Source: an uncultured Gammaproteobacteria bacterium
GTDB taxonomy: Bacteria; Pseudomonadota; Gammaproteobacteria; DATFLG01
Direction: 5' to 3'
DNA: 64,000 bases
Assembly: GCA_963830105.1 (NCBI GenBank)
Contig: CAWHLH010000003.1
Coordinates: 771,931 to 835,930 of the forward strand
Below, piece after piece: positions 24,462 to 59,284 of this stretch. The stretch's first letter is position 1, and every line of letters begins with the position of its first letter. Under the pieces are notes generated by a model. It did not search any database. It was not told the DNA's origin and saw only the letters and a list, made by a program, of their open reading frames with translations. The position numbers were made by a program, and so were the translations under genes.

Positions 24462-24498
24462 GGTCCAACTTCCCGAATTCTGCGTCCACTCCCGGGAA

Positions 24499-24514
24499 AG
24501 CAAGACCTATGCCA
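24499..24514 (-). promoter_or_regulatory. Sigma-54 (RpoN) -24/-12 promoter for the fliL operon
   Basis: Minus strand reads TGGCATaggtcTTGCT (GG-N10-GC spacing; consensus TGGCAC-N5-TTGCW), about 35 nt upstream of the fliL ATG at 24461. Confidence 0.6.
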
Positions 24515-28446: not shown

Positions 28447-28463
28447 AAGCAATTACTGTACCA
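28447..28463 (-). promoter_or_regulatory. Sigma-54-type promoter upstream of fliK
   Basis: Minus strand reads TGGTACagtaaTTGCTT (GG-N10-GC; one mismatch to TGGCAC) in the fliJ-fliK gap. Followed by an 8-bp palindrome gtctaggg/ccctagac (28421-28439) in the leader. Confidence 0.45.
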
Positions 28464-41860: not shown

Positions 41861-41876
41861 TGCAAATCCAGTGCCA
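41861..41876 (-). promoter_or_regulatory. Sigma-54 promoter for fliD, perfect consensus
   Basis: Minus strand reads TGGCACtggatTTGCA, exactly TGGCAC-N5-TTGCA. It starts immediately after the flaG stop and lies about 34 nt upstream of the fliD ATG. Confidence 0.75.
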
Positions 41877-42326: not shown

Positions 42327-43178
42327 TTAGCCGAGCAGCTTGAGTGCGAGCTGAGGTATCGAATTGGCCTGAGCCAACATGGATACACCTGCCTGCTGCA
42401 GGATCTGGGCCCTGGAAAGTGCGGCCGTCTGTGCCGCATAGTTCGTATCCACGATGGTGCTGCGGGCCGCGGTCAGATTCTGCTGAGAGTTGGTCAGGTT
42501 GGCTACCACCGAGTTGAAGCGGTTCTGGATGGCGCCGAAGGTGGCGGACTCGGAGGCCACGGTCTTGATGTCGGCCTGAATGCTGGTGATTGCCGCCGAC
42601 GCGGCCGACTGGCTGCTTACCTTGATGGTGTTGGTAGCAGTCAGGGTGCTGCTGAAGCTATTCAGTTTGTTCGTGCCGTTGGCAAGGTTCACACCGGTGG
42701 CGGTGATCTGGTCGTTCGCGCTACCGTTCTGGCCCACCTGGAAAGTGATGTTGGTGCTGCCCGATAGCAGCTGCGTTCCGGCGTATTTGGTGGTTGTGAC
42801 GATCTGGGAGATCTGCTGGGTGAGCTGGTCCACCTCCTTCTGGATACCGCCGCGCGCCGCCGAGGACACCGTGCCGTTGGCGGCCTCCACGGCCAGCTGG
42901 TTGATACGCTGCAGGGAGTCGCTGATCTGCTGCATGGCCCCGCCGGCAGTCTGCGCCAGGGAGACACCGTCGTTGGCATTGCGGACCGCCTGGCCCATGC
43001 CGTTGATATCGCCAGTCATCAGCTGAGACGAGTAGTAACCGGAGGCGTCGGATGCGGCGTTCTGCACCCGCAAGCCCGACGACAGCTGCTGCAGGGCGTC
43101 CGACAGCGAGCTCTGGGACTTCGAGAGGTTGTTCTGCGCGTACAGCGACATCAGATTGGTATTGATGGTAAGTGCCAT
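42327..43178 (-). CDS. fliC: Flagellin FliC (short, 283 aa)
   Basis: MALTINTNLMSLYAQNNLSKSQSSLSDALQQLSSGLRVQNAASDASGYYSSQLMTG… is the N-terminal D0/D1. C-terminal …TAALSRAQILQQAGVSMLAQANSIPQLALKLLG. The short central region is Ser/Thr-rich (NSFSSTLTATNTIKVSSQSAASAAITS). Confidence 0.95.
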   Translation of the reverse strand: MALTINTNLMSLYAQNNLSKSQSSLSDALQQLSSGLRVQNAASDASGYYSSQLMTGDINGMGQAVRNANDGVSLAQTAGGAMQQISDSLQRINQLAVEAANGTVSSAARGGIQKEVDQLTQQISQIVTTTKYAGTQLLSGSTNITFQVGQNGSANDQITATGVNLANGTNKLNSFSSTLTATNTIKVSSQSAASAAITSIQADIKTVASESATFGAIQNRFNSVVANLTNSQQNLTAARSTIVDTNYAAQTAALSRAQILQQAGVSMLAQANSIPQLALKLLG

Positions 43179-46275: not shown

Positions 46276-46562
46276 GCGAAATTCCTCTTCCACTCGTGGA
46301 ACCAAAGCCGACGAGAGACTGCTCCGAAGGGATGGCCGGCCTTCGGATCGCTCTTACAACGGCATGCCCCGAAGGTGCCTACGGTCGGATCGAAGGGGGG
46401 ACTGCCTCGAACTCGCAAGGCCATGCCCCCTTGTATCCCAAGAACCCCCAGACGGAATTAACGCGTCACGGGTGTTCGATCGATCTGCGCCCGCCCCCCC
46501 CCTTCAACGGATGCCACGATGCATTCCTGACGTCATCGCCCAAGGCCCAACGCAACTGGGGT

Positions 46563-49500
46563 TTACCTGTCCGACGCCGGCAGTAGCGCCTCCATCCACT
46601 CATCAAGGTGGTCATCGAGCATCCATTGGCTTCTCACCCATTCGCGCAGCTGCACTCCTTCCTGCTCCGCCGCGTCAAGATCGTGGACCCGGTCCCGTAT
46701 CGCATTGATCCATGCGCTGGCCGTATTGGCCACCCGCGTCACCGGAGCGTTGCGGTACGGTTCGATGTCCGTGCATATCACCGGGCAGCCCAGGACCCCG
46801 TATTCCAGCAGACGTAGATTGCTCTTGGCCTCGTTGAAGCTGTTGTACTCGAGCGGCGCCACGGCGATATCCAGACCCAGAGCCGCCAGGGCTGTTGGGT
46901 AGTCGTCGTACGGCACCGGCCCGTGGAACTCCGCCACATACGGCCGGATCGGCTCGGGGCACATGCCCATGAACACCCAGTCCACCTCCCGGGCGGTTTC
47001 TCGCACGACCTGATCCAGCAGTTGCAGGTCGCCTTCGTGCTGAAGCGCCCCCACCCATCCGATGCGCGGCCTGTCGCCGACTCGGCGGCGGACTTCCAGA
47101 TCGGCCCAGCGGTGATCCAGCCTGTTGGGCACGATGCGAATGTCACCGATGTAACTGCGGAAGTGATGGCCGAGCGCTTCAGTCGTGACAATCAGCCGAT
47201 CGCACAGAGACAGGCATTCTCGAAGGCGTTTCTTTATATCTTTATAGATGGTGGATCGTAGCGGATTCTTGGCGGGCAGCGCAGTCATCAGATCGTCCTG
47301 CCCGAAGGTGACAAAGGCGCCACCGCCGCGCCGGTACTGCCGCAGCGCCTCGATGTGCGCGTCGTGGACCGTGTTGTAGAGCAGCAGGCTGTCAACGTCC
47401 AGCCTGGCCAATTCGACCGGGCCCGGCACGCGCACCTGGTCGGGGTAAGTTGGAACCTCTGCCGTGTTGGCAATCCCCCGGCGCCCAAGGACATGAAGGG
47501 GTTGGGAGCCACGATACTCCCAGGACCCGGCGGAGCCGAACGCCATCCCCAGTATGCGCGGCAGGTCGTGGTTGTCCCGCGCAGACCACGCGGGCAGATC
47601 GTCCTCCAACGCCACGTCCGGTCGATGCAGGGACAAAGCCGGATGAAACGCCGGATCGTTGGCGAGCCGCGGCAACCAGCGCGCCCGCAGCCCCATCACT
47701 TCCTTCTCCGCTCCCTGCCCCGTGGTATCGGGCTGTCCGGCAAATATCGTCACGTGCGGCGTCCATATCACGCGTCGCCCGCGCTCCTGGGCCCGCAGAC
47801 ATATTTCCGTATCGCCGTGGTGGCGATTCGGCGCCAGCATGTCGATACCTAAATCGGCGTACAGCGCCTTCTCGATCAACAGGCCATCCCTGGAAACTGC
47901 TGACATCTCCTGGGCAACCTGAGCGCGCCCGAAATAGCCAGGTGCCGAATGGGTGAGCCCCGGCTGCAGCGGGGCCGCTATGCCGTCGGTACCCAGGCCA
48001 AGAATCTTACCGATGCCCCGAATGGACTGATCCGCACCGACGACGCGAGCACCGACAATGCCGGCCTCGGAGGGTAGCGCCTGCGCCACCATCCGCTCGA
48101 CCCAATTCGGTTGCACCACGCGCATGCCGTCGCACACGAACAACAGATACTCCGCCTCCACCGCGCCAATATCCTGCGGCGTCTCGAGCAGACCGATCCG
48201 GGCGTCCCGGTCGGCCAATACCCTTAAACCCTGCGCCACACTGTGATCCCGGTGCGCCAGACTAAGCCAGACGCGCATATCCGGATACGTCGTCGTCTCC
48301 AGAACCGATTGCACGCTGTTGGTGACTTCGTCAGCGCTGCCGCGGCCATGGACGACGACTGCGACTTGCGGCAAGCGCATCGGCTCGTATTCAACGCGCC
48401 AAGTCTCGCGCGCAATCCCCGGTTGTACAGCCGCCTTTGTGCCGCAGCGACTCAGATGCTCGGTCACTATGGCCATCCCGAGGACCGTCGCCTTCTCGCT
48501 GGACGTGCGGTTCGCGTCGAGGCGATGGTAGAGAATGTGTGGAATATGCCCGACCGCGCCGTCACCGCACCGTTCGATGATGCGCAACACGGCATCGTAG
48601 GCCTCCATTCCGTCGAGGCAAACGTAACCTCCCAGTGCGAGCAGTACCTCACGCGCCACCAGACAAAACCGCCCCACATAGGCCTGCCCGCGCAGCCATT
48701 CGAGATTGACGTCCGGCTTCAGGCGTGGCTCGTACTCACGTCCGTCGGCTCCAATCCGATCCTCGTCGGTGTATACAAACCGCCATTTCTCGTGCCTCTG
48801 GATATAGTCAGCGCATTGCAGAAGCAGCGAAACGTCGAACCGATCCCCCGGCCCCACCAGGCCGACCCAATCCGCCTCGACGTCACCGATGACCCGATTC
48901 ACTGCCTCGAGCCATCCGCCCCCGTCGACCTCCACCCACCGTAGCGCGGGATGCTGCGAGAACAGGGGATCGGGCGCTGGGCAATCCGCCACGACCGAGA
49001 GCTTCCAGCGCCCGTAGTGCTGCGCCGACACGGATTCCAGGGTGTCCGGCAAGCCGGACATATCCTTTTCCGACACCACCATCACCAGGTGCATCCCCGG
49101 CTGCGATGCCTTCCCCTCCACCGCCTGCCGCAGCTGATCGAGCTGCTCCGCCGTCGGTGCGCGCGCTGCGCGCCACCTTTCATACGCTTCGACCAACCGG
49201 TCCCTGACCTTTTCCGGCGACAACTTGTTGTCGGCCACATCGAGCAGCCCCGTCACCAACTGGCGCGACCCATCCCTGCCATGGAGCAGTTCGGAATAAA
49301 CAGCGTCATAGTCGCCGACGTTGTCCTCCATTGACTTGTGCACCAACCCCTCGAGCCCTGCGTGGACGCCCGTGAGCGAACTGCGGTCCTGCGCCAGTTC
49401 CAGGAGGCGCTTCGCCAATGCAGCCGGGTCCGAGGGCGGGACCAGAAAACCGGTAACCCCGTCGACCACCCGTTCGGGAATGGCCCCCACCGCCGCCGCG

Positions 49501-52469
49501 ACAACCGGCACACCCATGGCCTGGGCCTCGCTCACCGTCAGACAGAACGTTTCGTCCCACACCGACGGTATAATGACAACGTCCACGCGCCCAAGGAGCT
49601 TCGGCAGTTCTTCAGCCGAATAATTCCCGTGCAGCCTCAGGCCAAGCGATACCGCTCGTGCCTTGATGGTATCCTGGACCCCGCCGAACACTTCGACCTG
49701 CACCGCTTCGCCGCGCATCCGCTCCACAGCATCGAGTACCGTGTATGCCCCCTTGCGCTCGGTGAGGTTGCCGAGAAATCCGACCCGAAAGGTGCTGGTG
49801 CGCGGCGGGCGCGCTGACCTACCCTTTACTACGACGCCGTGGGGAACGACGCGGATCTTCGCACCCACCGTTTCCCCCAGCGCACGACAGAACTGGTCGC
49901 GCACGAAGGCCGACGGGGCAATAAGAATATCCGCCGCCTCCAGCACCGACTGGACCAGCGCCTGACGCTCGCCCATATACTGATTCAGCGCCGCGGGCGC
50001 GTGGATGCCGCTCAATTCACGCTTGGCGGACAGGCAACGCATGCACTGCGGGTCGGCGCCGTTGCTCTGCTCCCGTCCACAGCGCCTGTATTCCGGAAGC
50101 ATCAAGTTGTACTCGGGGCACAGCAAGAAATAGTCGTGGAGCGACACTACAACTTTCTTGCCGAGCGCCTTGGCCAGTACCGGCAACAGCAGACTGTCCC
50201 AGTGCGCCAAATGCTGAAAATGAACGATGTCGTAGTCACCCCCGGCTACAAAGCGGGTGAAGTTCCCTTCCACAATCGCATTGTCAAGATCGCCTGCAAT
50301 GCCGACAAACCGCTCCCTGGCCACCACGTTGCGCTCTCTGAGTTCAACGACCCGCAGGTGGGAATCACGCTGCTCCGAATGAAATTCGACATAGTCGCTT
50401 CTTTCGGCTTTTGTATTCCGGCCAGGGAACATGACCGTCGAGCGGTAGCGCTTTTCGAGACCGTCTATCAAACGCCGGGTATGCAACTCCGTGCCGCCCG
50501 GCACATCGAAGCTGTGAATCACATGCAGCACGTGCGGCCGGACTTCGCCCGGTTTGCGCTCCAGCGCCGTCTGCAGGCGCTCCTGCACCTCGCGAAGCGG
50601 ATTATGATGGCAGAAGACCTGCACCGCGACGTCGTACTTCGGCCAGCGCTTCGCGAGCACTTGCGCGTTGCGCAGTCGCCGCTTGCCAATCTGTTTTATG
50701 GAACTGAAGGAGGCCTCGCCATAATGGTGCACGTAGGCGTCGTCACAGCAGACGGTTTCGATTCCTACGTGCCAGGCGCGCATGCAGAAATCGCTCTCCT
50801 CGCCGTACCCAAGACCGAAGACCGAATCGAACACCCCGACCCGGTCGAGGGTTGCGCGGGTGATGAGCATGCAGAATCCCACGGCTGTCGGCAAACGCGG
50901 ATATGAACGCGGCGCATTCTCCGCCACGATCGCCGCAAACCTGTCCACCGACATGTCAGGCGGCAGCCGGTTGGCGGCGCTCATGACCGGAACCGAAAGA
51001 ATCGTGGCATTGTTCGACAAGGGCGAAACTATGCCGATTGCCGGATCGCTGAGGCGACAACGGTCCAGACGTGCCAGCCACCCGGCCGTCACCTCGGTAT
51101 CTGAGTTCAAGATCACCACATCATGGCGCGACAGCATGAAGCCCCGATTGACGTTTCCGATGAACCCGAGATTGCTGTCCGAGGTAACCACGCGCACACG
51201 CGGATCGGAAGATTCAAACCCCCTGAGCAATGGCAGGACCCGCGGATCGGAACTCGCGTCATCGAGGAGAATTACACAGTGCTTGGGATCGGTGTACCGC
51301 AACACGCTTTCCACGCAGCGCTTGACGTGATCGTAGGCGTTGTAGATCGGTATCAGGATATCGTATGCGGTCTCACTCTCCGCCAGCGCTTCGGCCGGCG
51401 GCATCCTGCGGACCAGCGTGAGCGCCCGATCGATGGCACTCCTGATACGCACGGCCGCACGGTCACGCTCTGGTCCCTGATTCGAGCTCTCGAGCACCGA
51501 CTGGTTCGCTGAGCGAGACTTGGACTCGATCGCATCAAGCCGACGCCGCAGTTGCTCCGGATCGCGGTCGTAGTTCGTGCTATCGCCATAGCGCGGCGTA
51601 GCCAGCAGCGCAACGGCCAGCTCATCAAGCCTTTCGACGGGCGAGCACTGTGCGATCGCAGCTTGCAAATTCACTACTCGCTCGCGGGGAACGAACAGCA
51701 GCGAGCTTTCCTCGGCCACGCCGAACATGTTATCCGGATTGCCGCGGAAATTTTCTATGTTGAATGCCGGGAAACGACAAAAGTATGCAGCGTAGTCGTA
51801 TTCTCTGAAGAACTTGACGATATCCCAACCGCGCTCAAGATCGTTGCACTCCAGATAGACCACCGATCGGGAGCGCGCCAGGTTTTGCTGCGCGCCGCGA
51901 AGGACGTCAAGTTCCATCGCCTCAACATCGATCTTGATCAGATCGACGTTTTCCTCGCACACACTGTCGAGCGTGATGACGGGTACCGTCAACATCTCCA
52001 TGTCCGGCTGGGCAGGGTTCTGGCCAGCGGCCAGAGACAATGCCCCGACATTCTGTCGTTGTGTGGGATCGATGGCAGGGATCGATACCGTCCCCGCAAC
52101 GCACGAGACCGCCGCATCGAACGCCCGGACGTTGCGGATTGCGTTCTGGACCAGATTCCGTGTTAAGACCTCGAAGACCTGCGGCTGGGCCTCGACCGCA
52201 TAGACGCGTCCGCTATCGCCGGCAATGCTCGAAAGGGCGAGGGTGTGAGTGCCTACGTTCGCACCGGCATCAATCACGACGCCGCCCGGCGGTACGAATT
52301 GCGCGAGGAACTCTATCTCGGCCTGCGCCCACTCGCCGTAGGCCTGCAAGGCATCGCCGATGGGACCGTCGAAGGGGAAAAATGACATCGAACCGTACCG
52401 GCACGGCAGGGTCTGCACGATATCATCCATCGGCTGCAACGCGGTTGTCGTATCAACGCTACGATTCAT
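46563..52469 (-). CDS. Giant (1968-aa) multidomain flagellin-glycan enzyme: FkbM methyltransferase - GT2 - GT4 - GT2 - GT2 - C-terminal GT-B-like domain
   Basis: Residues 60-250: VVIDAGANVGTHTLALS…VYAVEAQPQVFEVLTRNL…IKIDVEAMELDVLRG is an FkbM-family SAM methyltransferase. Then GT-A segments with DxD-like motifs (LLDDASSDP, NSDTEV; YTDED). A GT4-like region (…ETFCLTVSEAQAMGVPVVAAAVGAIPERVVDGVTGFLVPPSD). The C-terminal ~350 aa are paralogous to the C-terminus of the next gene. Start ATG at 52469 lies 11 nt after the stop of the upstream gene. Confidence 0.8.
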   Translation of the reverse strand: MNRSVDTTTALQPMDDIVQTLPCRYGSMSFFPFDGPIGDALQAYGEWAQAEIEFLAQFVPPGGVVIDAGANVGTHTLALSSIAGDSGRVYAVEAQPQVFEVLTRNLVQNAIRNVRAFDAAVSCVAGTVSIPAIDPTQRQNVGALSLAAGQNPAQPDMEMLTVPVITLDSVCEENVDLIKIDVEAMELDVLRGAQQNLARSRSVVYLECNDLERGWDIVKFFREYDYAAYFCRFPAFNIENFRGNPDNMFGVAEESSLLFVPRERVVNLQAAIAQCSPVERLDELAVALLATPRYGDSTNYDRDPEQLRRRLDAIESKSRSANQSVLESSNQGPERDRAAVRIRSAIDRALTLVRRMPPAEALAESETAYDILIPIYNAYDHVKRCVESVLRYTDPKHCVILLDDASSDPRVLPLLRGFESSDPRVRVVTSDSNLGFIGNVNRGFMLSRHDVVILNSDTEVTAGWLARLDRCRLSDPAIGIVSPLSNNATILSVPVMSAANRLPPDMSVDRFAAIVAENAPRSYPRLPTAVGFCMLITRATLDRVGVFDSVFGLGYGEESDFCMRAWHVGIETVCCDDAYVHHYGEASFSSIKQIGKRRLRNAQVLAKRWPKYDVAVQVFCHHNPLREVQERLQTALERKPGEVRPHVLHVIHSFDVPGGTELHTRRLIDGLEKRYRSTVMFPGRNTKAERSDYVEFHSEQRDSHLRVVELRERNVVARERFVGIAGDLDNAIVEGNFTRFVAGGDYDIVHFQHLAHWDSLLLPVLAKALGKKVVVSLHDYFLLCPEYNLMLPEYRRCGREQSNGADPQCMRCLSAKRELSGIHAPAALNQYMGERQALVQSVLEAADILIAPSAFVRDQFCRALGETVGAKIRVVPHGVVVKGRSARPPRTSTFRVGFLGNLTERKGAYTVLDAVERMRGEAVQVEVFGGVQDTIKARAVSLGLRLHGNYSAEELPKLLGRVDVVIIPSVWDETFCLTVSEAQAMGVPVVAAAVGAIPERVVDGVTGFLVPPSDPAALAKRLLELAQDRSSLTGVHAGLEGLVHKSMEDNVGDYDAVYSELLHGRDGSRQLVTGLLDVADNKLSPEKVRDRLVEAYERWRAARAPTAEQLDQLRQAVEGKASQPGMHLVMVVSEKDMSGLPDTLESVSAQHYGRWKLSVVADCPAPDPLFSQHPALRWVEVDGGGWLEAVNRVIGDVEADWVGLVGPGDRFDVSLLLQCADYIQRHEKWRFVYTDEDRIGADGREYEPRLKPDVNLEWLRGQAYVGRFCLVAREVLLALGGYVCLDGMEAYDAVLRIIERCGDGAVGHIPHILYHRLDANRTSSEKATVLGMAIVTEHLSRCGTKAAVQPGIARETWRVEYEPMRLPQVAVVVHGRGSADEVTNSVQSVLETTTYPDMRVWLSLAHRDHSVAQGLRVLADRDARIGLLETPQDIGAVEAEYLLFVCDGMRVVQPNWVERMVAQALPSEAGIVGARVVGADQSIRGIGKILGLGTDGIAAPLQPGLTHSAPGYFGRAQVAQEMSAVSRDGLLIEKALYADLGIDMLAPNRHHGDTEICLRAQERGRRVIWTPHVTIFAGQPDTTGQGAEKEVMGLRARWLPRLANDPAFHPALSLHRPDVALEDDLPAWSARDNHDLPRILGMAFGSAGSWEYRGSQPLHVLGRRGIANTAEVPTYPDQVRVPGPVELARLDVDSLLLYNTVHDAHIEALRQYRRGGGAFVTFGQDDLMTALPAKNPLRSTIYKDIKKRLRECLSLCDRLIVTTEALGHHFRSYIGDIRIVPNRLDHRWADLEVRRRVGDRPRIGWVGALQHEGDLQLLDQVVRETAREVDWVFMGMCPEPIRPYVAEFHGPVPYDDYPTALAALGLDIAVAPLEYNSFNEAKSNLRLLEYGVLGCPVICTDIEPYRNAPVTRVANTASAWINAIRDRVHDLDAAEQEGVQLREWVRSQWMLDDHLDEWMEALLPASDR

Positions 52470-52480
52470 TTCACCCTACT

Positions 52481-55400
52481 CTAGCTGTAATGCCGGGCGA
52501 TCGAGACCGGCCGGCACTCCGCAACCGGGCGGGTCTTGTCACCGGGCGTCAGGGACGCCATCCAGTCGTCCAAATGGTCCTCGAGCATCCATCCGTTCAG
52601 CACCCAATCCTTCAGCCTGTCCCCTTCCTGCGCGGCGGCGCCCAGGTCATGCGCGCGTTCGCGAATCGCGTCGATCCACGCGGCAGGATCATTGCGTACA
52701 CGCTTGACTGGGCCGCCACGGTACGGTTCGATATCCGTACACACCACCGGCCAGCCCAGAACTCCATATTCCAGGATACGCAGATTGCTCTTTGCGATGT
52801 TGAATGGATGGTCTTCCAGGGGTGCCACGGCCAGATCCAGATTGAGTGCAGCGAGCCTGACCGGGTACTGGGCGAATTCCCCGAACTCGTGGACCTCCCG
52901 CACGAACGGACGCAATGCATCCGGACACATTCCGAAGAACACCCAATCCACCTCTTTGGCGGTGGCCTGGACGACCGGGATGAGCAGTTCGAGGTCGCCC
53001 AGGTGCTGCTGACCGCCGGCCCACCCCACTCGGGGACGAGGCCCCTGACGGCGCAGCGAACGTAGCGTGCCCCAGCGGGAGCGTGGCAGATAGTTGGGAA
53101 GGACACGTATGTCGTCGATGATGTCCCGATACACCTCCGCGATGGGGTCAGTGGTAACGATCAACCGATCGCAGCAGCTGAGCGCTCGGCGGGTGCGCGC
53201 CTTGATATCACGGAAAAGCAACTTCCGACGGGAATTCTTTTCCGGTACCTGCGTTTTCAGGTCTTCCATGTCGAAGACCCGGAATGCCCTGTTGAAACGC
53301 TTGTAGCTTTCAAGGGCGTCCAGGTGCGCGTCATCCAAGGTCCCCTGCAGCAGCAGGGTGTCCGGATCGAGACGTTCCAGTTCGACTATCGAGGGTACCC
53401 GCGGCCAGCCCTCCTGGGGTGCGGCAAAACCGCAGCGGGCACGCGCAGCGGCGGCCAACGCGTTCAAAGGCGCCAGAACGCGGTACTCCCCGCAGCCATA
53501 GGTGTCGACGGGGATACCGAGGATACGGGGGCGGTCGTTAAATGACGGGTCCCAGCTCGCGGTCGACTCGGTGCGCGTGCGGAAGTCCCTGTGGGACAGG
53601 CTCAGGTTTCGGTTGTAATACGGATCGTGCGCCAGATCTCCGAGCCAGCGTTGGAGCATCCGGTTTCCCTCTTCCCCGCAGCCCGGTCGCTCGCCTCCCG
53701 CGCACTGCGGCGGTTGCCAGCCCAGCAGCGCGTGCGGTGTCCACACAACTCGCAGGCCCCGGTTGCGCAACCGAAGGCAGAGATCGGCGGGGTACCAAAC
53801 GTTGGGAAGCATCTGTTCGTCGAAGGGGCCGATGGCTTCGAAAGCAGCGCGGCGGACCATCAAACACGCGCCAGGCACGGCGGACACGCCTTGATCGGTC
53901 AGGGCGCGCCCAAAATAGCCCGGATCCCATGCCGACAGACCTGCGAATGCATCTGCGGCTACGCCGCCTATCCCCAGCAGCAGGGCACTGTGTGCCACCG
54001 TTTTGTCCGGCCCCACAACCCGTGGCGCCACCACGCCGACATCCGGTCGCTGGGCATGGTTGAGCAGTTCTTCCAGCCAGGTTTCCTGCACAAACACCGA
54101 GTGCCTGTCGATGAAAACCAGATATTCACCTGTCGCCACCTCCACTGCCGCATTGTAGGCGGCGGCGCGATTGCCCGGGGTCGGCGCCGTCACCACCCTC
54201 ACGAGTCCCTGGTGGCGCAACAAGTCCAGGTAGTCGTAGGTGTCTTCATCCTCACTACCCTCGTCCACGATCAGCAATTCCATGTGTGCATACCGGGTAG
54301 CGTCGCGCAGGCTGTCGATGAAGATTTCCAGGACATGGAGGTCGTCACGGACAGCAACAATGACCGAGACCATGGGATGAGCGGCATGCTGATAGCAGAC
54401 CCGCAGGGTCTGCGTCGCCAGCCCCTCGGCGACCTCCGCTGTCTGTCCGCAGCGCTCGAGATGGGCTGCCAACGCCGCACGGCGCCACGGCATAAGCCGG
54501 AGGTCGCCGCGCAGGGCTTCGGTGACGGGTCCCCGATGATACAAGACATCGGCGACATGCCCGATGCACTCGGTCCCGCAACGCTCCAGCACCTTCAATG
54601 CCAGTTCGTAATTCCGAATTCCCGGCTCCGAGCTGTAGCCCCCGGCTGCCAGCAACACCTCCCGACGCACGAGACAGAAACTGCCGACCCCGTCCTGGGA
54701 ACGCAGCAGGTCAGGGTCGGCATCTGTCTTGAACCACGGGTCTGCGCGCCTGCCGGCGGCGTCCATCCGGTCCTCGTCACTGTAGATCAAGGCCCAGTCC
54801 GGAGACTGTTGGAGATGATCGATACAGGCAAACAGGGCATTCGGTGCCAGCCGGTCGCCGGGGCGGATCAGCCCGACCCAGTCGGCGTCGGTATCTGCAA
54901 TCGCCCGGTTGATGGCGGACTCCGGATCGTCCCCACACTGGTACCACTCCAGGTTGGGCTGTTCGCCGAACAGGGCGTCCGGGCAAGGCTCCTCAGCGAC
55001 AACGGTCAACCCCCACCCGGGATAGAGCTGGTCTGAGAGCGACTGCAGGGTAGGGGCCAGAAGTTGCGTTTCGCCGGTCCGCAACGGTGCGATGAGATGG
55101 ACGGAGGGACGTACACGCCAGTTCAGCACCATACGTTCGGCCAGAAGTTCCCCGTCAGACTCGCGCAGGGCGTAGATGCGGGTCCAGTCGGCATAGTCAA
55201 GGGGCCGGTCTGGCCCCTGTGCATCACCATCGAAGGGCATCGGCGGCGGTGCCGGCGAGAGGGCCGCAAACACATCCTCCAGCGCATCGAGTTCCAAAGC
55301 CGCCTGATCGAGAAATGCCGCGTCCGGTGCCACATCACCGGCCGCGACGCTTGCGAGATGGCCGTACACCCCATCCACGAGGGATCGAAGCCCTCGCGGC

Positions 55401-57529
55401 TCGCCAGCCGAGACGGCGTCGCTGTGGTGACGTAGCGCGGGCGTCAGAAACGCCTCGACGTCGGTCTCAACCCGCTCATCGGAAAGCGGCAATCGGAGAC
55501 CAAGCGAACCGGCAATACGCGATACCGTGCCACGCCAATCCGAAAGCAGCTGATCGTAGGTCGTAAAGACTCGCAGTGCTCCTCGACTATGGCGCTCGGC
55601 CTCCAGCACATGACGCAGCCAAAGCAACAGCCCCCGATTGCGGGACAACCCGTCCCGCCGTTGCAGCGAGTCCGCGACCTCGTATGGGCTTCTCAGCGGA
55701 ATAACATACCTGGGAGCCGCACCCATATCGGCCAGAACCCGTTGCCAGAGCGGCAGCAGCCGACACAGACGCGGATCCTTTGCACCCCACAGCGGGCGCC
55801 CCGCGAACTCCCGTCGGAGAGTGGCGCCAAGCTCGTGCTGCAGAGCCCACAGTCGGGGCCGTTCCCAACACCCTTCCGGCAGACGCCGCGGATCCGACCA
55901 TGACATGCCCAGTTCGCCCAGCACCTGATCATTCAGGACCATGATGTCGGCGTGTTCCCAAAAGCCGCGTTCATTGGCAGCGTTGCCAGCCAGTAGCGAG
56001 CTGCCGAGTTCGACCCCGTGCAGGTTCAGCACTCGGGTCAGAGCTGAGGTGCCGCTGCGGTGCATACCCAGAACCAGCAGCGCGGCAGGTTCATCCGTGC
56101 TTGGCTCGGGGCGCGCCTGGGGATACGCGAGTCCCTTGCCGGCTGCACCGCAGCTCCCGGTGTACTGGCACAAGGTCAGCTCACGGGGAGTCGGCAGCGA
56201 CAGAACTTCCAGAGGAAGCTCATCGCTGAACCGGCTCTGTCGGTCCGGGACCGCCTCGCTGGCGTCCCCGGAACGGTACGCCACAACCAGGGCGCCCGGG
56301 CGAAGATACGGAGCGTACTCCTGCAGCTCCGCAGCCTGTCCGGTTGCCATACCATCCAACACCACCAAGTCGACGCCTTCGCGCAACGCCGGCTCGGCGG
56401 GCGCGTCATCCAGCAGTCGGACGATCTGGTCTACACCGGCGCGGCCCAGGCGTTCGGCCGCAATCCTCCGGCAGTCAGGATCTGCTTCGACACTGATCAG
56501 CTGACCGATGCCGTTTTGTGCCAACGCGCGGCCAATGGCTTCGCCCACATAGCCGCGCCAGGCACGCGTCTCCACGACCAGTCGCGGCTTGACGGCGCGC
56601 ACAAGCCCGTACAGGAACTCCAACGTCTCCACATCGGCGGTCCAACCATCGAACATCGACCACAGGCGGGGTTCACGGGCCGAAGGCGCAGCTAATGAAA
56701 GCTCCGGATAGATCGACTCCCCCTGGAACAGCAGCGAAGCGCGCTGCGGCCTGGGCCGTGTGCGCCAGGCCTCCATGCGGCTGGACAAACCTTCGGTTCC
56801 AAGCCACGGCTTTGCATCGTAGCTGCGCGCATAGTACTCCGCACGATCGTCCAGCTCCCCTGCCGCGTGACCGAGATTACGGGCGAGATAGCGAGGCGCC
56901 CAGGCGCACATATAGCCGGCATGTCTGACGGACTCGGAAAGCGCCACGTCGTCCGGCAGCAGTACGCCATGCTTATTGGTGTTGGAGCCAACCCTGATGC
57001 CGGCGTCCCACAGCTCCCGTCGCAACAGACAACTGGTGCCGACATTGCCGACAGCCTCATAGAGAAAGTGCCCGTTCTGGCTGCGGAGCACGGCGGGCTT
57101 GGTTTGCCAGACCTCTTCGTCCTCCGGCACTGGCGCACACAGCGACAACTGACCGAGTCCGGGGAAACAGGCGAACAACTCAAGCGCTTCTTCCACCCAC
57201 CCGGAGCGGTACTCGAAGTCATTTTCGCTGACATGCAGTAGCCCGGCGCGACTTTTCCGAAGTCCCTCGTTGATTGCGGCCCCGCCGATGTTCTCCGGCA
57301 GGTAGATCGCCTGCGCTGCAGGTGTGGCCGCACAAAACTCTTCGATGACGGTACGGGAACCGTCCGACGACCCGTTGTCCACGATAAACAGCTCATACGG
57401 GACGGTAACGGTGTCGCGGTAGCTTTCCAGCGTACGACGCAACAGGTCGGCCCGGTTCCAGTTGAGCACGGTTGTGCTGATCACCGGTGCTGACGCCTTT
57501 TCGCCCACGCATAGATCTCCTCTGTACAT
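52481..57529 (-). CDS. Giant (~1680-aa) multidomain flagellin-glycan enzyme: GT2 - class I SAM methyltransferase - sulfotransferase-like - GT2 - GT2 - C-terminal GT-B-like domain
   Basis: VISTTVLNWNRADLL…FIVDNGSSDGS is GT2. LVVETRAWRGYVGEAIG…ISVEADPD…VDLVVLDG is a TylF/class-I methyltransferase. LLVLGMHRSGTSALTRVL…WGAKDPRLCRLL…YVIPLRSPYEVADSL resembles the PAPS 5'-PSB (RSGTS) and 3'-PB motifs of sulfotransferases. Two more GT-A segments (…LLIVDEGSEDED…). C-terminal domain shared with the 1968-aa protein. Start is uncertain: ATG at 57529, or a GTG at 57508 preceded by an AGGAGA RBS. The track ORF begins at 57622. Confidence 0.75.
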   Translation of the reverse strand: MYRGDLCVGEKASAPVISTTVLNWNRADLLRRTLESYRDTVTVPYELFIVDNGSSDGSRTVIEEFCAATPAAQAIYLPENIGGAAINEGLRKSRAGLLHVSENDFEYRSGWVEEALELFACFPGLGQLSLCAPVPEDEEVWQTKPAVLRSQNGHFLYEAVGNVGTSCLLRRELWDAGIRVGSNTNKHGVLLPDDVALSESVRHAGYMCAWAPRYLARNLGHAAGELDDRAEYYARSYDAKPWLGTEGLSSRMEAWRTRPRPQRASLLFQGESIYPELSLAAPSAREPRLWSMFDGWTADVETLEFLYGLVRAVKPRLVVETRAWRGYVGEAIGRALAQNGIGQLISVEADPDCRRIAAERLGRAGVDQIVRLLDDAPAEPALREGVDLVVLDGMATGQAAELQEYAPYLRPGALVVAYRSGDASEAVPDRQSRFSDELPLEVLSLPTPRELTLCQYTGSCGAAGKGLAYPQARPEPSTDEPAALLVLGMHRSGTSALTRVLNLHGVELGSSLLAGNAANERGFWEHADIMVLNDQVLGELGMSWSDPRRLPEGCWERPRLWALQHELGATLRREFAGRPLWGAKDPRLCRLLPLWQRVLADMGAAPRYVIPLRSPYEVADSLQRRDGLSRNRGLLLWLRHVLEAERHSRGALRVFTTYDQLLSDWRGTVSRIAGSLGLRLPLSDERVETDVEAFLTPALRHHSDAVSAGEPRGLRSLVDGVYGHLASVAAGDVAPDAAFLDQAALELDALEDVFAALSPAPPPMPFDGDAQGPDRPLDYADWTRIYALRESDGELLAERMVLNWRVRPSVHLIAPLRTGETQLLAPTLQSLSDQLYPGWGLTVVAEEPCPDALFGEQPNLEWYQCGDDPESAINRAIADTDADWVGLIRPGDRLAPNALFACIDHLQQSPDWALIYSDEDRMDAAGRRADPWFKTDADPDLLRSQDGVGSFCLVRREVLLAAGGYSSEPGIRNYELALKVLERCGTECIGHVADVLYHRGPVTEALRGDLRLMPWRRAALAAHLERCGQTAEVAEGLATQTLRVCYQHAAHPMVSVIVAVRDDLHVLEIFIDSLRDATRYAHMELLIVDEGSEDEDTYDYLDLLRHQGLVRVVTAPTPGNRAAAYNAAVEVATGEYLVFIDRHSVFVQETWLEELLNHAQRPDVGVVAPRVVGPDKTVAHSALLLGIGGVAADAFAGLSAWDPGYFGRALTDQGVSAVPGACLMVRRAAFEAIGPFDEQMLPNVWYPADLCLRLRNRGLRVVWTPHALLGWQPPQCAGGERPGCGEEGNRMLQRWLGDLAHDPYYNRNLSLSHRDFRTRTESTASWDPSFNDRPRILGIPVDTYGCGEYRVLAPLNALAAAARARCGFAAPQEGWPRVPSIVELERLDPDTLLLQGTLDDAHLDALESYKRFNRAFRVFDMEDLKTQVPEKNSRRKLLFRDIKARTRRALSCCDRLIVTTDPIAEVYRDIIDDIRVLPNYLPRSRWGTLRSLRRQGPRPRVGWAGGQQHLGDLELLIPVVQATAKEVDWVFFGMCPDALRPFVREVHEFGEFAQYPVRLAALNLDLAVAPLEDHPFNIAKSNLRILEYGVLGWPVVCTDIEPYRGGPVKRVRNDPAAWIDAIRERAHDLGAAAQEGDRLKDWVLNGWMLEDHLDDWMASLTPGDKTRPVAECRPVSIARHYS

Positions 57530-58381
57530 CGGCCCAACCGGTCTCCAGCGCGATCTGACCGTTTGGCAGCAGGGCGGCGACGGAAATTCGACACCCAATG
57601 GAACAATCAAGCAAAGCAACAACGGGCCGAATCAGTTGGTTAGCGCTGGTTGTACGAAAATGGCCGATCCGGTTGCAGCTCGCTGGCTAGCTGCTGCAAG
57701 TGCTATGCCACTTGGGTTGGGATTCGGCCCGCCACTGATGGGCCGCGGCGCTCTGACTGACCTTCCCCGGCCCCTTACCCCCCGCAACTGCGCCAGCCGT
57801 TCTGACGGCGACCGCACCGGCGGCGCCCACCATTTGCATCGGCGAAGTACGGGGTGCAGGGATGCACAAGGGACATGTCCGTTTCGCTGCCAATCACCCC
57901 GAACGAGGGGTCGCTGCGCGGGCTTTGCAGGGTGCGCCCTGGGGATAGCGAGCACTGCGCCGCCCACAGCGTTGCGATTTTTCACCTGCCACTTGATGGG
58001 CACCAACCATGAACGCCGGCTTGCACGCGGACCCCGCTTGCCGGACACCGGCGACAAGTTGCCGTCTCAGGGTCCGAGGCGCCGCCACCGGGGCGGCCCG
58101 GATACCCCCCGGACCGCGCTTTCCACGGGGCGGTCGCGCAATCGGACTCGCGAAGAACGCGAGCGGGCTCGCATCTTTCAACACACATGGCTTGTGTCGG
58201 GGAGGAAGTGCCGGCACTCGGACGGGTGCGTTTCGGACGCTGACGCAGCCGGACCTTGCTGGTCCGCAACAGGCAGTTCCACCGGGGTAACCGGTAATGG
58301 CCTTGTCCGCCGCCCTTACAGGCTCAACCGATTTCGCGTCTGGTCGACGCAGTCACGCGAAAAGAATCTCGTAATCAACAC

Positions 58382-59284
58382 TCAGGGCAGGTAATTGAAC
58401 AACGACAGCCCCTGAATCTTCCCAAAGCTCTGCTGGGCGGCCTGCAGCGCAGTCATCTGCTGCTGAAACTGGCTGATGGCCTGGGTGTAGTTCAAGTCCT
58501 GCACCTGGGAGAGGTTCTTCTGGACCGCCAGCAGGGAGCTGGAGCTGAGTGTCTGCTGATCGCTGACGGCGTTCTGCCGCGATCCGATGTCCGTCTGCAC
58601 CGACAGCACATGCTGGAGGGCGTTGCCGATGTCGGTGATGGACGAAGCGCTGGGGCTGTTCGATTGCAGCGAAGTGACGAAGTCCTGGAGCGTCTTGAAG
58701 ACGCTCTGGCTGCCCCCGCTGCTGGTTGGAGCGCTCATGAAGACGCTGGAACCGGCGTCGCTTACCGCAACCTGGCGCGACGCGCCGATTTGAACGAAGC
58801 GTTGGGCTTGATCGCCATTGTAGGTCACCGTTCCGCCATTCATGGTAAATGGCTGCTGACCGCTCCGGTAGCCGCCGAAGATATACTGGCCGTTGGTGTC
58901 CTTGGTATTCGCCAACGCCTGGAGTTGTTGCAGGCTCTGCTGGACCTCCTGGGCGATGCCCTGGCGGTCCTGTGCACTCTGGGTACCGTTGGTGGCCTGT
59001 ATTGCCAGGGTATGCGCACGCTGCAGCAGGTTCACCACCGAATCAAGGGTGTTGCTTTCCAGGGTCAGCTGCTGGCTGGCGTAATCGCTGTTGCTCTGAT
59101 ACTGATTTGTTTGGGAGACCGACTTGTCCAGACGCAGGGCCTGGGTAGTCCCGGCCGGGTCGTCGGCGGGCGAAAGGATGCGCTGGCCGGTGGACAACTG
59201 TTGCTGGGTTCGGGCGGCGCCCGTCTGCTGGTCGAGGATGGCGTTGACCCCTTGCTGGAACAACTGGGCAGTGGAGATGCGCAT
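58382..59284 (-). CDS. flgL: Flagellar hook-associated protein FlgL (HAP3)
   Basis: MRISTAQLFQQGVNAILDQQTGAARTQQQLSTGQRILSPADDPAGTTQALRL is the flagellin-like N-domain typical of FlgL. 300 aa. Confidence 0.92.
   Translation of the reverse strand: MRISTAQLFQQGVNAILDQQTGAARTQQQLSTGQRILSPADDPAGTTQALRLDKSVSQTNQYQSNSDYASQQLTLESNTLDSVVNLLQRAHTLAIQATNGTQSAQDRQGIAQEVQQSLQQLQALANTKDTNGQYIFGGYRSGQQPFTMNGGTVTYNGDQAQRFVQIGASRQVAVSDAGSSVFMSAPTSSGGSQSVFKTLQDFVTSLQSNSPSASSITDIGNALQHVLSVQTDIGSRQNAVSDQQTLSSSSLLAVQKNLSQVQDLNYTQAISQFQQQMTALQAAQQSFGKIQGLSLFNYLP

What the first reader, a model, noticed from the sequence alone, without database searches (positions are those of the whole stretch)
55298..56095. Sulfotransferase-like domain embedded in a flagellin glycosyltransferase megaprotein
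Residues ~510-775 of the ~1680-aa protein read …LLVLGMHRSGTSALTRVL…(about 90 aa)…WGAKDPRLCRLLPLWQRVL…YVIPLRSPYEVADSL… This reproduces the spacing and character of the PAPS 5'-phosphosulfate loop (xKSGTT) and the 3'-phosphate RDP motif of sulfotransferases. Sulfated flagellin glycans would be a rare modification with consequences for charge and immune recognition.
Basis: inference. Interest (0 to 1): 0.65.

Follow-up and report, generated by a model that had tools for sequence, protein, structure and literature searches.

The report
Sulfotransferase module in flagellin glycosylation enzyme
A giant sugar-adding enzyme encoded next to the flagellin gene carries a well-conserved sulfate-transferring domain, and similar genes sit at the same spot in at least nine other flagellar loci, which predicts that some bacteria sulfate the sugars on their flagella, a modification I found no report of in bacteria.

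Summary
Window 55298-56095 (minus strand) encodes aa 479-744 of a 1682-aa protein (52481-57529) lying between flgL and fliC.

The segment is a PAPS-type sulfotransferase (ST) domain:
- Only ST families match in Pfam, covering the full model, but the score is below Pfam's cut-off (22.7 vs 27 bits).
- It is 45-66% identical to a very large family (20,861 cluster representatives), many of which pass PF13469.
- The AlphaFold model is confident (pLDDT 93.5) and its 32 best PDB matches are all sulfotransferases.
- The 5'-phosphosulfate loop (GMHRSGTSA) and a 3'-phosphate motif are invariant.

The protein reads GT2, methyltransferase, ST, GT2, GT2, GT4-like. Its first 1313 residues are a colinear fusion of three adjacent genes found in Wzm/Wzt polysaccharide clusters. 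In some of those clusters an APS kinase gene sits beside the ST gene.

ST-bearing giant glycosyltransferases sit next to flgL and/or fliC in nine other loci. Three show both genes flanking the ST gene; six show one side only or have other genes in between.

Sulfation of the flagellin glycan is therefore a well-supported prediction, but no chemistry has been done. I rate it a new variant of a known kind, with moderate interest.

The parts
52481..57529 (-). Six-module megaprotein CDS (1682 aa from the ATG; the public annotation starts 7 codons later, giving 1675 aa, and names it only 'glycosyltransferase')
55364..56083 (-). PAPS-type sulfotransferase domain, aa 483-722
   Evidence: Pfam Sulfotransfer_3/_1 only, below cut-off. 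51% identity to a standalone ST gene. AF2 pLDDT 93.5. The top 32 Foldseek PDB hits are all sulfotransferases.
56042..56068 (-). 5'-phosphosulfate-binding loop GMHRSGTSA (aa 488-496), in a strand-loop-helix arrangement
   Evidence: H490 through A496 are invariant and G488 and M489 at least 90% conserved in 44 family members. The model has a strand at domain residues 4-8 and a helix at 13-25.
55952..55957 (-). E525-H526 (WEH), candidate catalytic base
   Evidence: E47 is invariant in A1 and E47/H48 are invariant in A2. The role is inferred, not mapped.
55769..55780 (-).
55667..55693 (-). 3'-phosphate-binding motif RSPYEVADS (R613...S621)
   Evidence: R135 and S143 are invariant. The model has a strand at 127-134 followed by a helix at 137-148. 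The motif aligns with ARNPAAVLSS of a canonical ST.
56780..57487 (-). GT2 module A (aa 15-250)
56162..56632 (-). Class I SAM methyltransferase module (Methyltransf_24; aa 300-456)
54395..55195 (-). GT2 module B (aa 779-1045)
   Evidence: 31% identity to the GT2-GT2 gene of L003
53591..54394 (-). GT2 module C (aa 1046-1313)
   Evidence: PF00535, 129.6 bits for the whole protein, best stretch aa 1055-1233
52484..53590 (-). C-terminal GT-B (GT4-like) glycosyltransferase module (aa 1314-1682)
   Evidence: AF2 pLDDT 83.5. Foldseek top hits are PglA, GlgM, PimB' and BshA, and also the protein O-glycosyltransferases SdgB and GtfC.
57695..57710 (-). Sigma-54-type -24/-12 consensus match (TGGCATAGCACTTGCA), about 166 nt upstream of the megaprotein ATG
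   Evidence: 8 sites at <=1 mismatch against 2.97 expected. Three of the others lie just upstream of ORFs in the flagellar cluster (fliD, fliK, and the unscanned ORF ending at 24503). This is a consensus match only.
46563..52469 (-). Second island megaprotein (1968 aa: FkbM methyltransferase, GT2, GT4/GT1, and about 900 aa without a significant Pfam domain match)
43864..46305 (-). 813-aa radical SAM/SPASM protein, the last gene of the island
58382..59284 (-). flgL, the upstream boundary of the island
42327..43178 (-). fliC: a 283-aa flagellin with a Ser/Thr-rich centre, the presumed glycan acceptor

Best explanation
Residues 483-722 form a functional PAPS-dependent sulfotransferase module. It is the third of six modules (GT2, SAM methyltransferase, ST, GT2, GT2, GT4-like) in a cytoplasmic assembly-line enzyme. 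That enzyme is encoded in a flagellin glycosylation island between flgL and fliC.

Together with the neighbouring 1968-aa methyltransferase/glycosyltransferase megaprotein and a radical-SAM protein, it builds an O-linked glycan on the Ser/Thr-rich centre of the short flagellin before export. The ST module transfers sulfate from PAPS to a sugar hydroxyl of that glycan, giving an anionic, sulfated (and methylated) flagellar coat.

Shown here: the fold, the conserved PAPS-binding motifs, the family membership by homology, the modular architecture, its origin by fusion of three adjacent polysaccharide-cluster genes, and the repeated position at flagellar loci.

Inferred: catalytic activity, a sugar (rather than protein) acceptor, flagellin as the carrier, and whether the sulfate sits internally or on the non-reducing end.
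For: Domain identity:
- Only ST families match, across the full model.
- All nine PDB sequence hits of the trimmed family profile are sulfotransferases.
- AF2 gives pLDDT 93.5 and pTM 0.91. Foldseek ranks 1-32 are all PAPS sulfotransferases, including the CurM ST, TPST1/2, Stf1, 3-OST and SULTs.
- The window copy keeps all 28 invariant family residues, including HRSGTS, K584, R613 and S621.
- KDPR and R...S align with KTPR and ARNP...S of a canonical ST that scores 116 bits on PF13469.
- The ST module is as conserved between orthologues as the GT modules (55-61%), while linkers are 23-42%.

PAPS link:
- An APS kinase gene lies beside or near the ST gene in L005/L006 and in 6 of 80 metagenome loci.

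Glycan context:
- Standalone relatives sit in Wzm/Wzt glycan clusters (29 of 80 loci).
- Megaprotein aa 15-456, 483-722 and 779-1313 are colinear with three adjacent genes of such a cluster, at 46%, 51% and 31% identity.

Flagellar link:
- The gene order is flgH-I-J-K-L, island, fliC-flaG-fliD, and no transporter lies in the island.
- ST-bearing giant glycosyltransferases lie directly between flgL and fliC in L011 and L025, and in L009 with only rml sugar genes in between. In L010 and L012 one to four other island genes separate flgL from the ST gene. In L014, L032, L043 and L055 the contig shows only one side.
- These copies form their own clades. In L012 the ST belongs to a different subfamily.
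- A sigma-54-type site lies upstream of the gene, like those before fliD and fliK.
Against: - The window copy scores below Pfam's gathering cut-off (17.3 bits in the full protein, 22.7 for the domain alone, against 27).
- The catalytic base is not identified.
- No PAPS-synthesis or PAP-phosphatase gene lies in the 64 kb.
- I found no report of a sulfated bacterial flagellin glycan, so there is no chemical precedent.
- An Aeromonas O-antigen cluster carries an ST-domain gene although no sulfate was found in the polysaccharide (PMC4483657). That ST's relation to this family was not tested.
- The organism is known only as a metagenome-assembled genome.
Confidence: 0.6

Rival explanations
1. The sulfate acts as a chain-terminating cap on the non-reducing end. 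It would limit or mark the finished flagellin glycan, as methyl, phosphomethyl or Kdo caps do in ABC-transporter-dependent O-polysaccharide synthesis. It would not be an internal decoration.
For: - Standalone relatives lie directly after Wzt proteins that carry the cap-reading Wzt_C module.
- They have a C-terminal extension that weakly matches coiled coils. A coiled-coil protein carrying the terminator is the hallmark of that strategy (PMC11231755).
- N-terminal modifier plus GT2-GT2 is the architecture of known terminator-polymerases, and it is the dominant architecture here (117 of 120 long relatives).
Against: - The window protein has no coiled coil after the ST, only a poorly conserved 56-aa linker.
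- There is no Wzt or CBM in the window.
- I found no report of a sulfate terminator.
Confidence: 0.2
2. The enzyme modifies a glycan other than flagellin's (LPS O-antigen, capsule or another secreted protein), and its position in the flagellar cluster is incidental.
For: Most family members lie in Wzm/Wzt clusters. More distant ST-GT2-GT2 proteins sit beside a type I secretion system or a type II secretion/pseudopilin cluster.
Against: - The same position next to flgL and/or fliC recurs in nine other loci from at least two proteobacterial classes, and those copies form separate ST clades.
- The island has no lipid-carrier priming enzyme or exporter.
- A related Chromatiaceae genome lacks the island precisely between flgL and fliC.
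Confidence: 0.1
3. The ST-fold module is catalytically silent, serving as a structural or PAP(S)-binding regulatory spacer within the assembly line.
For: The Pfam score is below cut-off and the catalytic base is unassigned. There is a precedent of an ST-domain gene in a polysaccharide cluster with no sulfate detected.
Against: Every invariant residue of a family with more than 20,000 cluster representatives is retained, including both PAPS-binding motifs. The module is as conserved as the GT modules, while linkers drift.
Confidence: 0.06
4. The acceptor is not a stable sugar sulfate. Either flagellin Tyr/Ser/Thr is sulfated directly (as by TPST or RaxST), or sulfation is a transient activation step (as with the CurM sulfotransferase) that precedes elimination or substitution on a sugar.
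For: The best Foldseek E-values are to the CurM and olefin-synthase STs, and the best TM-scores are to TPST1/2 (0.55-0.58).
Against: Identity to those enzymes is only 13-19%. The sequence relatives sit in glycan clusters, fused or adjacent to glycosyltransferases. No thioesterase-like partner is present.
Confidence: 0.04

Closest known systems
Pseudomonas-type flagellin glycosylation islands between flgL and fliC (Arora et al. 2001, as cited in PMC3542563)
   Same: The island sits in the same chromosomal slot, flanked by flgL and fliC. It encodes cytoplasmic glycosyltransferases and sugar-modifying enzymes. It is variably present: it is absent from a related Chromatiaceae genome.
   Different: Here the island is condensed into two giant multi-module proteins plus a radical-SAM enzyme, and it includes a sulfotransferase module. 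I found no report of a sulfotransferase in such islands.
Multi-module polymerase/terminator enzymes of ABC-transporter-dependent O-polysaccharide synthesis (WbdD/WbdA, WbbB, K. pneumoniae O7 ORF6; PMC11231755)
   Same: A small-group-transferring module is combined with tandem GT2 modules in one polypeptide. The window protein's first 1313 aa are colinear with three adjacent genes of a Wzm/Wzt cluster. Standalone relatives follow a Wzt that carries Wzt_C.
   Different: The small group would be sulfate, not methyl, phosphate or Kdo. The window protein has no coiled-coil ruler and no transporter nearby, and the presumed carrier is a protein rather than undecaprenol-linked glycan.
Bacterial polysaccharide sulfotransferases, for example XssA/XssE of the Synechocystis synechan cluster (PMC8205485) and ST genes in sulfated capsule clusters of marine Vibrio and Cobetia (PMC11641403, PMC11766843; titles and abstracts only)
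   Same: They are PAPS-type ST genes embedded in glycan biosynthesis clusters. [quoted passage not shown]
   Different: Those are separate proteins acting on exported polysaccharides. Here the ST is a domain inside a glycosyltransferase at a flagellar locus. Its sequence relation to XssA/XssE was not tested.
Sulfur-containing anionic flagellar glycans: sulfated N-glycans of Halobacterium flagellins (PMC2952790) and sulfonated peptidylamido-glycans of C. difficile type B flagellin (PMC5207245)
   Same: Both are precedents for a negatively charged sulfur oxyanion on a motility-filament glycan.
   Different: The first is archaeal and N-linked, on an unrelated filament. For the second I read only the title and abstract, which describe a sulfonated peptidylamido glycan; that this is a C-S sulfonate rather than an O-sulfate ester is from my own knowledge. 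The text I read named no ST in either case.
Structurally closest solved enzymes: TPST1/2, CurM and olefin-synthase ST domains, mycobacterial Stf0/Stf1, heparan sulfate 3-OST
   Same: They share the ST fold with the 5'-PSB strand-loop-helix and the 3'-PB Arg...Ser.
   Different: Identity is only 13-19% and TM-scores are 0.4-0.58. The acceptors differ (protein Tyr, beta-hydroxyacyl-ACP, trehalose, heparan sulfate).

Membership tests
PAPS-dependent sulfotransferase superfamily (Pfam Sulfotransfer_3 PF13469 / Sulfotransfer_1 PF00685) | Sulfotransferase alpha/beta fold | tested here: met
PAPS-dependent sulfotransferase superfamily (Pfam Sulfotransfer_3 PF13469 / Sulfotransfer_1 PF00685) | 5'-phosphosulfate-binding strand-loop-helix motif (xK/RSGTT type) at the start of the domain | tested here: met
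   In GMHRSGTSA (aa 488-496), H490 through A496 are invariant and G488 and M489 at least 90% conserved in 44 members. It lies between the strand at domain residues 4-8 and the helix at 13-25 of the model.
PAPS-dependent sulfotransferase superfamily (Pfam Sulfotransfer_3 PF13469 / Sulfotransfer_1 PF00685) | 3'-phosphate-binding motif: Arg at the end of a strand and Ser eight residues later in the following helix | tested here: met
   R613 and S621 are invariant. The strand is at 127-134 and the helix at 137-148. They align with ARNPAAVLSS of a canonical ST. That the Arg-to-Ser spacing of 8 matches SULT and TPST enzymes is from my own knowledge.
PAPS-dependent sulfotransferase superfamily (Pfam Sulfotransfer_3 PF13469 / Sulfotransfer_1 PF00685) | Score at or above the curated Pfam cut-off | tested here: inconclusive
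   The window copy scores 17.3 bits (whole protein) or 22.7 bits (domain alone) against a cut-off of 27, but covers model positions 3-214 of 216, and no non-ST family matches at a meaningful E-value. Relatives pass: P0125 28.1, P0134 35.6, and many standalone members.
PAPS-dependent sulfotransferase superfamily (Pfam Sulfotransfer_3 PF13469 / Sulfotransfer_1 PF00685) | Catalytic base (His or Glu) positioned near the acceptor hydroxyl | tested here: inconclusive
   Invariant E525/H526 and K584/D585 are candidates. No superposition on a ligand complex was possible with the available tools.
PAPS-dependent sulfotransferase superfamily (Pfam Sulfotransfer_3 PF13469 / Sulfotransfer_1 PF00685) | Uses PAPS and transfers sulfate | not testable with these tools
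   Indirect support only: an APS kinase gene lies beside or near family members in L005/L006 and in 6 of 80 metagenome loci.
Flagellin glycosylation island | Glycosyltransferase genes inserted between flgL and fliC | tested here: met
   The order is flgH-I-J-K-L, two megaproteins, radical SAM protein, fliC-flaG-fliD. The window protein has four GT modules.
Flagellin glycosylation island | Linkage to flagellar genes conserved in other genomes | tested here: met
   L009, L011 and L025 show both flgL and fliC flanking the ST gene. L010 and L012 have other island genes in between. L014, L032, L043 and L055 show one side only. These copies form separate ST clades.
Flagellin glycosylation island | Flagellin actually carries the glycan | not testable with these tools
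   All that can be said is that FliC has a Ser/Thr-rich centre.
O-polysaccharide chain terminators (WbdD-like) | Coiled-coil molecular ruler attached to the terminating catalytic module | tested here: not met
   In the window protein the ST is followed by a 56-aa, poorly conserved, Pro-rich linker. Only the standalone relatives have a coiled-coil-like tail.
O-polysaccharide chain terminators (WbdD-like) | Partner Wzm/Wzt exporter with a cap-binding Wzt_C module in the cluster | tested here: not met
   None of the 41 larger ORFs scanned in the window is an ABC transporter. Such exporters are present in relatives' clusters.
Tyrosylprotein sulfotransferases (TPST/RaxST) | Sequence-level family membership | tested here: not met
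   There is only fold-level similarity (13-18% identity, TM up to 0.58). No TPST chain appears in the sequence searches of the PDB.

The most novel reading that the evidence does not exclude
A widespread, uncharacterised sulfotransferase family (more than 20,000 cluster representatives) installs sulfate on cytoplasmically assembled bacterial glycans. It would act in two settings. In one it would be a new, sulfate-type chain-terminating and export signal read by Wzt carbohydrate-binding modules in O-polysaccharide pathways. In the other it would be a dedicated module of flagellin glycosylation islands, producing the first known sulfated bacterial flagella in diverse environmental Alpha- and Gammaproteobacteria.
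Probability: 0.3. Interest if true: 0.75.

Novelty: new variant of a known kind. Interest (0 to 1): 0.55.

Why it matters
Flagellin glycans shape filament assembly, surface charge, phage attachment and immune or plant-receptor recognition. I found no description of sulfate esters on bacterial flagella in the literature I could search.

A conserved ST module at the flagellin locus, found here in the window and nine other loci, gives a concrete and cheap prediction: an 80-Da sulfate on flagellin glycopeptides.

It also flags a very large ST family that public annotation misses when the domain is fused. The source record calls this protein only 'glycosyltransferase'.

The link to Wzt_C-bearing exporters and to adjacent APS kinase genes further suggests a possible sulfate-based capping chemistry in O-antigen synthesis. 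That would add a new member to the short list of known terminators.

Tried and rejected
- The first family profile (A1) was contaminated by the coiled-coil tails of standalone homologues and pulled myosin, lamin and SNARE chains from the PDB. I trimmed it to the domain (A2), after which all nine hits were sulfotransferases.
- The genome-contig scan with the whole protein returned only two weak loci. The source species is not among the representatives.
- The P. gingeri locus (L002) gave no hits to the window's flagellar proteins in the 24 kb fetched, and I dropped it.
- The identical public protein could not be located on a contig, so the rest of the genome, including the cysDNC/cysQ genes, could not be inspected.
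- NCBIfam has no model for the domain.
- My first guess at the ST region of P0133 was wrong. Pfam placed it at aa 295-492.
- Kinase or another P-loop identity is rejected. No such family matches, and the first non-ST fold hit (PFKFB3) appears only at rank 33 with TM 0.37.
- A second ST copy in the window is rejected. A family HMM over all six frames finds only this one.
- A sigma-28 consensus scan gave nothing useful near the gene.
Full report
**Observation.**
The flagged interval lies on the minus strand inside one long ORF (52481-57622). From the first ATG (57529) the product is 1682 aa. The identical public protein is annotated from a GTG seven codons later (1675 aa), as 'MAG: glycosyltransferase [Gammaproteobacteria bacterium]'.

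**Is it a sulfotransferase domain?**
- Pfam. Against Pfam the whole protein gives strong GT2 hits, a Methyltransf_24 hit, and a sub-threshold Sulfotransfer_3 hit (17.3 bits, cut-off 27) spanning model positions 3-213 of 216. The excised segment scores 22.7 bits (E 1.3e-4) on Sulfotransfer_3 and 19.2 on Sulfotransfer_1. Apart from one insignificant hit (U_exon, E 0.22), nothing else matches. NCBIfam has no model for it.
- Homologues. A single-sequence PDB search finds only retinol dehydratase and SULT2B1, weakly. A homologue search shows the segment belongs to a very large, well-conserved family. There are at least 2,966 hits at 42-55% identity. Most of the 120 listed are 270-460 aa, about half already carry PF13469, and a few are named 'sulfotransferase'. 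An exhaustive search finds 20,861 cluster representatives at E<=1e-3 and 6,149 at E<=1e-30.
- Conserved residues. In a 44-sequence alignment the window copy retains all 28 invariant positions. These include H-R-S-G-T-S-A (aa 490-496), E525, K584/P586/R587, R613/P615/E617/S621 and R625.
- Profile against the PDB. A domain-trimmed profile hits nine PDB sequences, all sulfotransferases.
- Structure. AlphaFold2 with this alignment gives a confident model (pLDDT 93.5, pTM 0.91). The 32 best Foldseek matches in the PDB are all PAPS sulfotransferases: the CurM and olefin-synthase ST domains, TPST1/2, Stf1, Stf0, 3-OST and cytosolic SULTs. E-values run from 3e-5 to 3e-3, TM-scores are 0.4-0.58 and identity is 9-19%. 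The first non-ST fold (PFKFB3) appears at rank 33.
- Motif placement. In the model GMHRSGTSA sits in a strand-loop-helix (strand at domain residues 4-8, helix at 13-25). R613 ends a strand (127-134) and S621 lies in the next helix (137-148). That is the geometry of the 5'-phosphosulfate and 3'-phosphate binding motifs.
- Alignment with a canonical ST. A profile alignment with the ST domain of P0133 (PF13469, 116 bits) pairs KDPR with KTPR and LRSPYEVADS with ARNPAAVLSS.

The true 3'-PB motif is the third quoted string, not KDPR.

**Is the module maintained?**
Against two full-length orthologues (P0122 and P0123, 64% and 58% identical overall) the ST module is 55% and 61% identical. The GT2 modules are similar at 54-60%, while inter-module linkers are only 23-42%. 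A family HMM run over all six frames finds only this one copy in the window.

**Architecture and origin.**
The protein reads:
- GT2 (aa ~15-250)
- Methyltransf_24 (300-456)
- ST (483-722)
- GT2 (779-1045)
- GT2 (1046-1313)
- a C-terminal 369-aa domain. This last domain models as a GT-B fold (pLDDT 83.5). Its best matches are GT4-type enzymes (PglA, GlgM, PimB', BshA), and protein O-glycosyltransferases (SdgB, GtfC, Gtf3) also appear.

Standalone ST relatives lie in ABC-transporter-dependent glycan clusters. In L003 the gene order is Wzm, Wzt (with Wzt_C), a GT2+Methyltransf_24 gene, the ST gene, then a GT2-GT2 gene. The window protein's aa 15-456, 483-722 and 779-1313 match those three consecutive gene products in the same order, at 46%, 51% and 31% identity. 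The first 1313 residues are therefore a colinear gene fusion.

Of the 120 best full-length relatives, 117 contain this ST domain, usually at the N-terminus of ST-GT2-GT2(-GT4) proteins of 1000-1700 aa.

**Link to PAPS.**
In L005/L006 an APS kinase gene sits between wzm and wzt, immediately upstream of the ST gene. In 80 metagenome loci recovered with the family profile, 29 contain Wzm/Wzt (16 of the 29 loci that are at least 10 kb). Six contain an APS kinase gene within a few kilobases, and it is adjacent in L051, L078 and L085. APS kinase is normally a single-copy housekeeping gene, so this is a clear enrichment. It is the best available indirect evidence that the family uses PAPS. No PAPS-pathway gene was found among the 41 larger ORFs scanned in the window.

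**Link to the flagellum.**
- Gene content. The window is a polar-flagellum and chemotaxis cluster: cheW, motAB-like genes, cheB, cheA, flhF, flhA, flhB, fliR, fliP, fliM, fliK, fliI, fliG, fliF, two sigma-54 activators including FleQ, fliD, flaG, fliC and flgL-K-J-I-H.
- The island. It consists of this gene, a 1968-aa FkbM-methyltransferase/GT2/GT4 megaprotein and an 813-aa radical SAM/SPASM protein. It fills the gap between flgL and fliC, the classical site of Pseudomonas flagellin glycosylation islands (PMC3542563 citing Arora 2001). There is no transporter or lipid-carrier enzyme in it.
- Other flagellar loci. The closest relatives whose context could be read are all flagellar. P0125 (Stellaceae MAG, 41% identical over 1264 aa) lies after flgL and is followed by rmlC/D/A and then fliC (L009). 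P0130 lies directly between flgL and fliC (L011). P0134 follows flgL and a methyltransferase gene, and fliC comes next (L010). P0244 lies two genes after flgL on a contig that ends before any fliC (L014). Four of the 80 metagenome loci are also flagellar: L025 shows flgK-flgL, the ST-GT2-GT2 gene, then fliC-fliD. L032 shows the flgK-flgL side only, and L043 and L055 show the fliC side only.
- A second ST subfamily. In L012 a 2481-aa island protein carries an ST of a different, canonical subfamily. L014 holds a second, >2800-aa protein with PF13469.
- Clades. A rough neighbour-joining tree, without support values, places the flagellar ST copies in their own clades, apart from the Wzm/Wzt-linked copies.
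- Island absence. A Chromatiaceae MAG with 70%-identical FlgI has flgL directly followed by fliC. Between them is only a 46-codon remnant of the megaprotein's C-terminus. The island is therefore a gain/loss cassette at this exact site.
- Promoter. A sigma-54-type -24/-12 match lies about 166 nt upstream of the gene, like those upstream of fliD and fliK. There are 8 sites at <=1 mismatch against 2.97 expected, and none of 100 shuffles reached 8.
- Acceptor. FliC is short (283 aa) with a Ser/Thr-rich centre.

**Mechanism proposed.**
The two megaproteins and the radical-SAM enzyme assemble and tailor an O-linked glycan on flagellin in the cytoplasm. The ST module uses PAPS to sulfate a sugar hydroxyl, and the methyltransferase modules add methyl groups.

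Where the sulfate sits is open. The standalone relatives have a coiled-coil-like tail, follow a Wzt_C-bearing Wzt and neighbour GT2-GT2 genes. They therefore look like the terminator proteins of O-polysaccharide pathways (PMC11231755). The window protein has lost the coiled coil and has no exporter nearby. I treat terminal capping as a sub-hypothesis (about 0.2) rather than the main claim.

The alternatives are less likely for the reasons given under rivals. They are a non-flagellin target, a silent domain, and direct protein sulfation or transient activating sulfation.

**Comparison with what is known.**
- The domain is a member of the PAPS sulfotransferase superfamily by fold, motifs and homology. 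Its own Pfam score is sub-threshold while relatives pass.
- ST genes in bacterial polysaccharide clusters are known (synechan, PMC8205485; marine capsule clusters).
- Multi-module GT/terminator enzymes are known (PMC11231755), and so are flagellin glycosylation islands.
- I found no report of a sulfotransferase in a bacterial flagellin glycosylation locus, or of a sulfate ester on a bacterial flagellin glycan. The nearest precedents are the sulfated N-glycans of Halobacterium flagellins (PMC2952790) and the sulfonated peptidylamido-glycans of C. difficile type B flagellin (PMC5207245).
- The literature tool covers open-access papers only, so an earlier report cannot be excluded.

**Verdict.**
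I rate it a new variant of a known kind: a flagellin glycosylation island with a built-in sulfation module, recurring across lineages. My confidence that the fold and family assignment is right is about 0.9. My confidence that it actually sulfates the flagellin glycan is about 0.6. Interest is 0.55.

Noticed in passing
L001 9046-11177 (Chromatiaceae MAG DTRM01000091.1): In this relative flgL is followed almost directly by fliC. Between them is only a ~46-codon stretch, 61-62% identical to the megaprotein's C-terminus (aa 1621-1666). It looks like a deletion scar showing that the island is gained or lost at exactly this site.
   Followed up: partly
window 52481-57529 compared with L003 8580-12888: The first 1313 residues of the megaprotein are a colinear fusion of three adjacent genes (GT2+methyltransferase, ST, GT2-GT2) of a Wzm/Wzt polysaccharide cluster.
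   Followed up: yes
L003, L005 and alignment A1 columns ~300-400: Standalone ST homologues carry a ~100-aa C-terminal extension that weakly matches coiled-coil proteins and ends in a conserved KSTxSWRITxPLR tail. They follow Wzt proteins that carry the cap-binding Wzt_C module. This layout resembles WbdD-type chain terminators.
   Followed up: partly
L005 8129-8779; L026, L051, L053, L075, L078, L085: APS kinase genes are embedded in or adjacent to the ST-containing glycan clusters. In L005 the gene lies between wzm and wzt.
   Followed up: yes
window 46563-52469 (-): The second island megaprotein (1968 aa) has FkbM methyltransferase, GT2 and GT4/GT1 modules. Its last ~900 residues have no significant Pfam domain match.
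   Followed up: no
window 43864-46305 (-): An 813-aa radical SAM/SPASM protein lies between the megaproteins and fliC. Its N-terminal ~360 aa are unassigned. It may tailor a sugar or the glycan.
   Followed up: no
window 42327-43178 (-): The flagellin is only 283 aa, too short for large surface domains (inferred from length), and its centre (aa ~140-200) is Ser/Thr-rich. A bulky glycan might stand in for the missing outer domains.
   Followed up: partly
L012 10001-17446 and L014 12127-18701: Other flagellar islands carry giant GT proteins (2481 aa and more than 2800 aa) with TPR repeats and an ST domain. In L012 the ST belongs to a different, canonical subfamily (PF13469, 116 bits). L014 has two ST-bearing proteins in one island.
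   Followed up: partly
L013 (P0150) and the P0222 locus: More distant ST-GT2-GT2 proteins lie next to a type I secretion system, or next to a type II secretion/pseudopilin cluster with heptose-pathway genes. This hints at glycosylation or sulfation of other secreted proteins.
   Followed up: no
window 57695-57710, 41861-41876, 28448-28463, 24499-24514 (all -): Sigma-54-type -24/-12 consensus matches lie just upstream of the megaprotein, fliD, fliK and a further ORF in the flagellar cluster (23892-24503, not scanned). There are 8 sites at <=1 mismatch against ~3 expected.
   Followed up: partly
window 3324-4664 (+) and 27034-28407 (-): Two separate genes encode proteins with the FliK hook-length-control domain. 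One lies outside the main flagellar operons, on the opposite strand.
   Followed up: no
window 24625-26889 (-): A protoglobin-PAS-GGDEF-EAL protein, a possible gas-sensing c-di-GMP enzyme, is embedded in the flagellar cluster.
   Followed up: no
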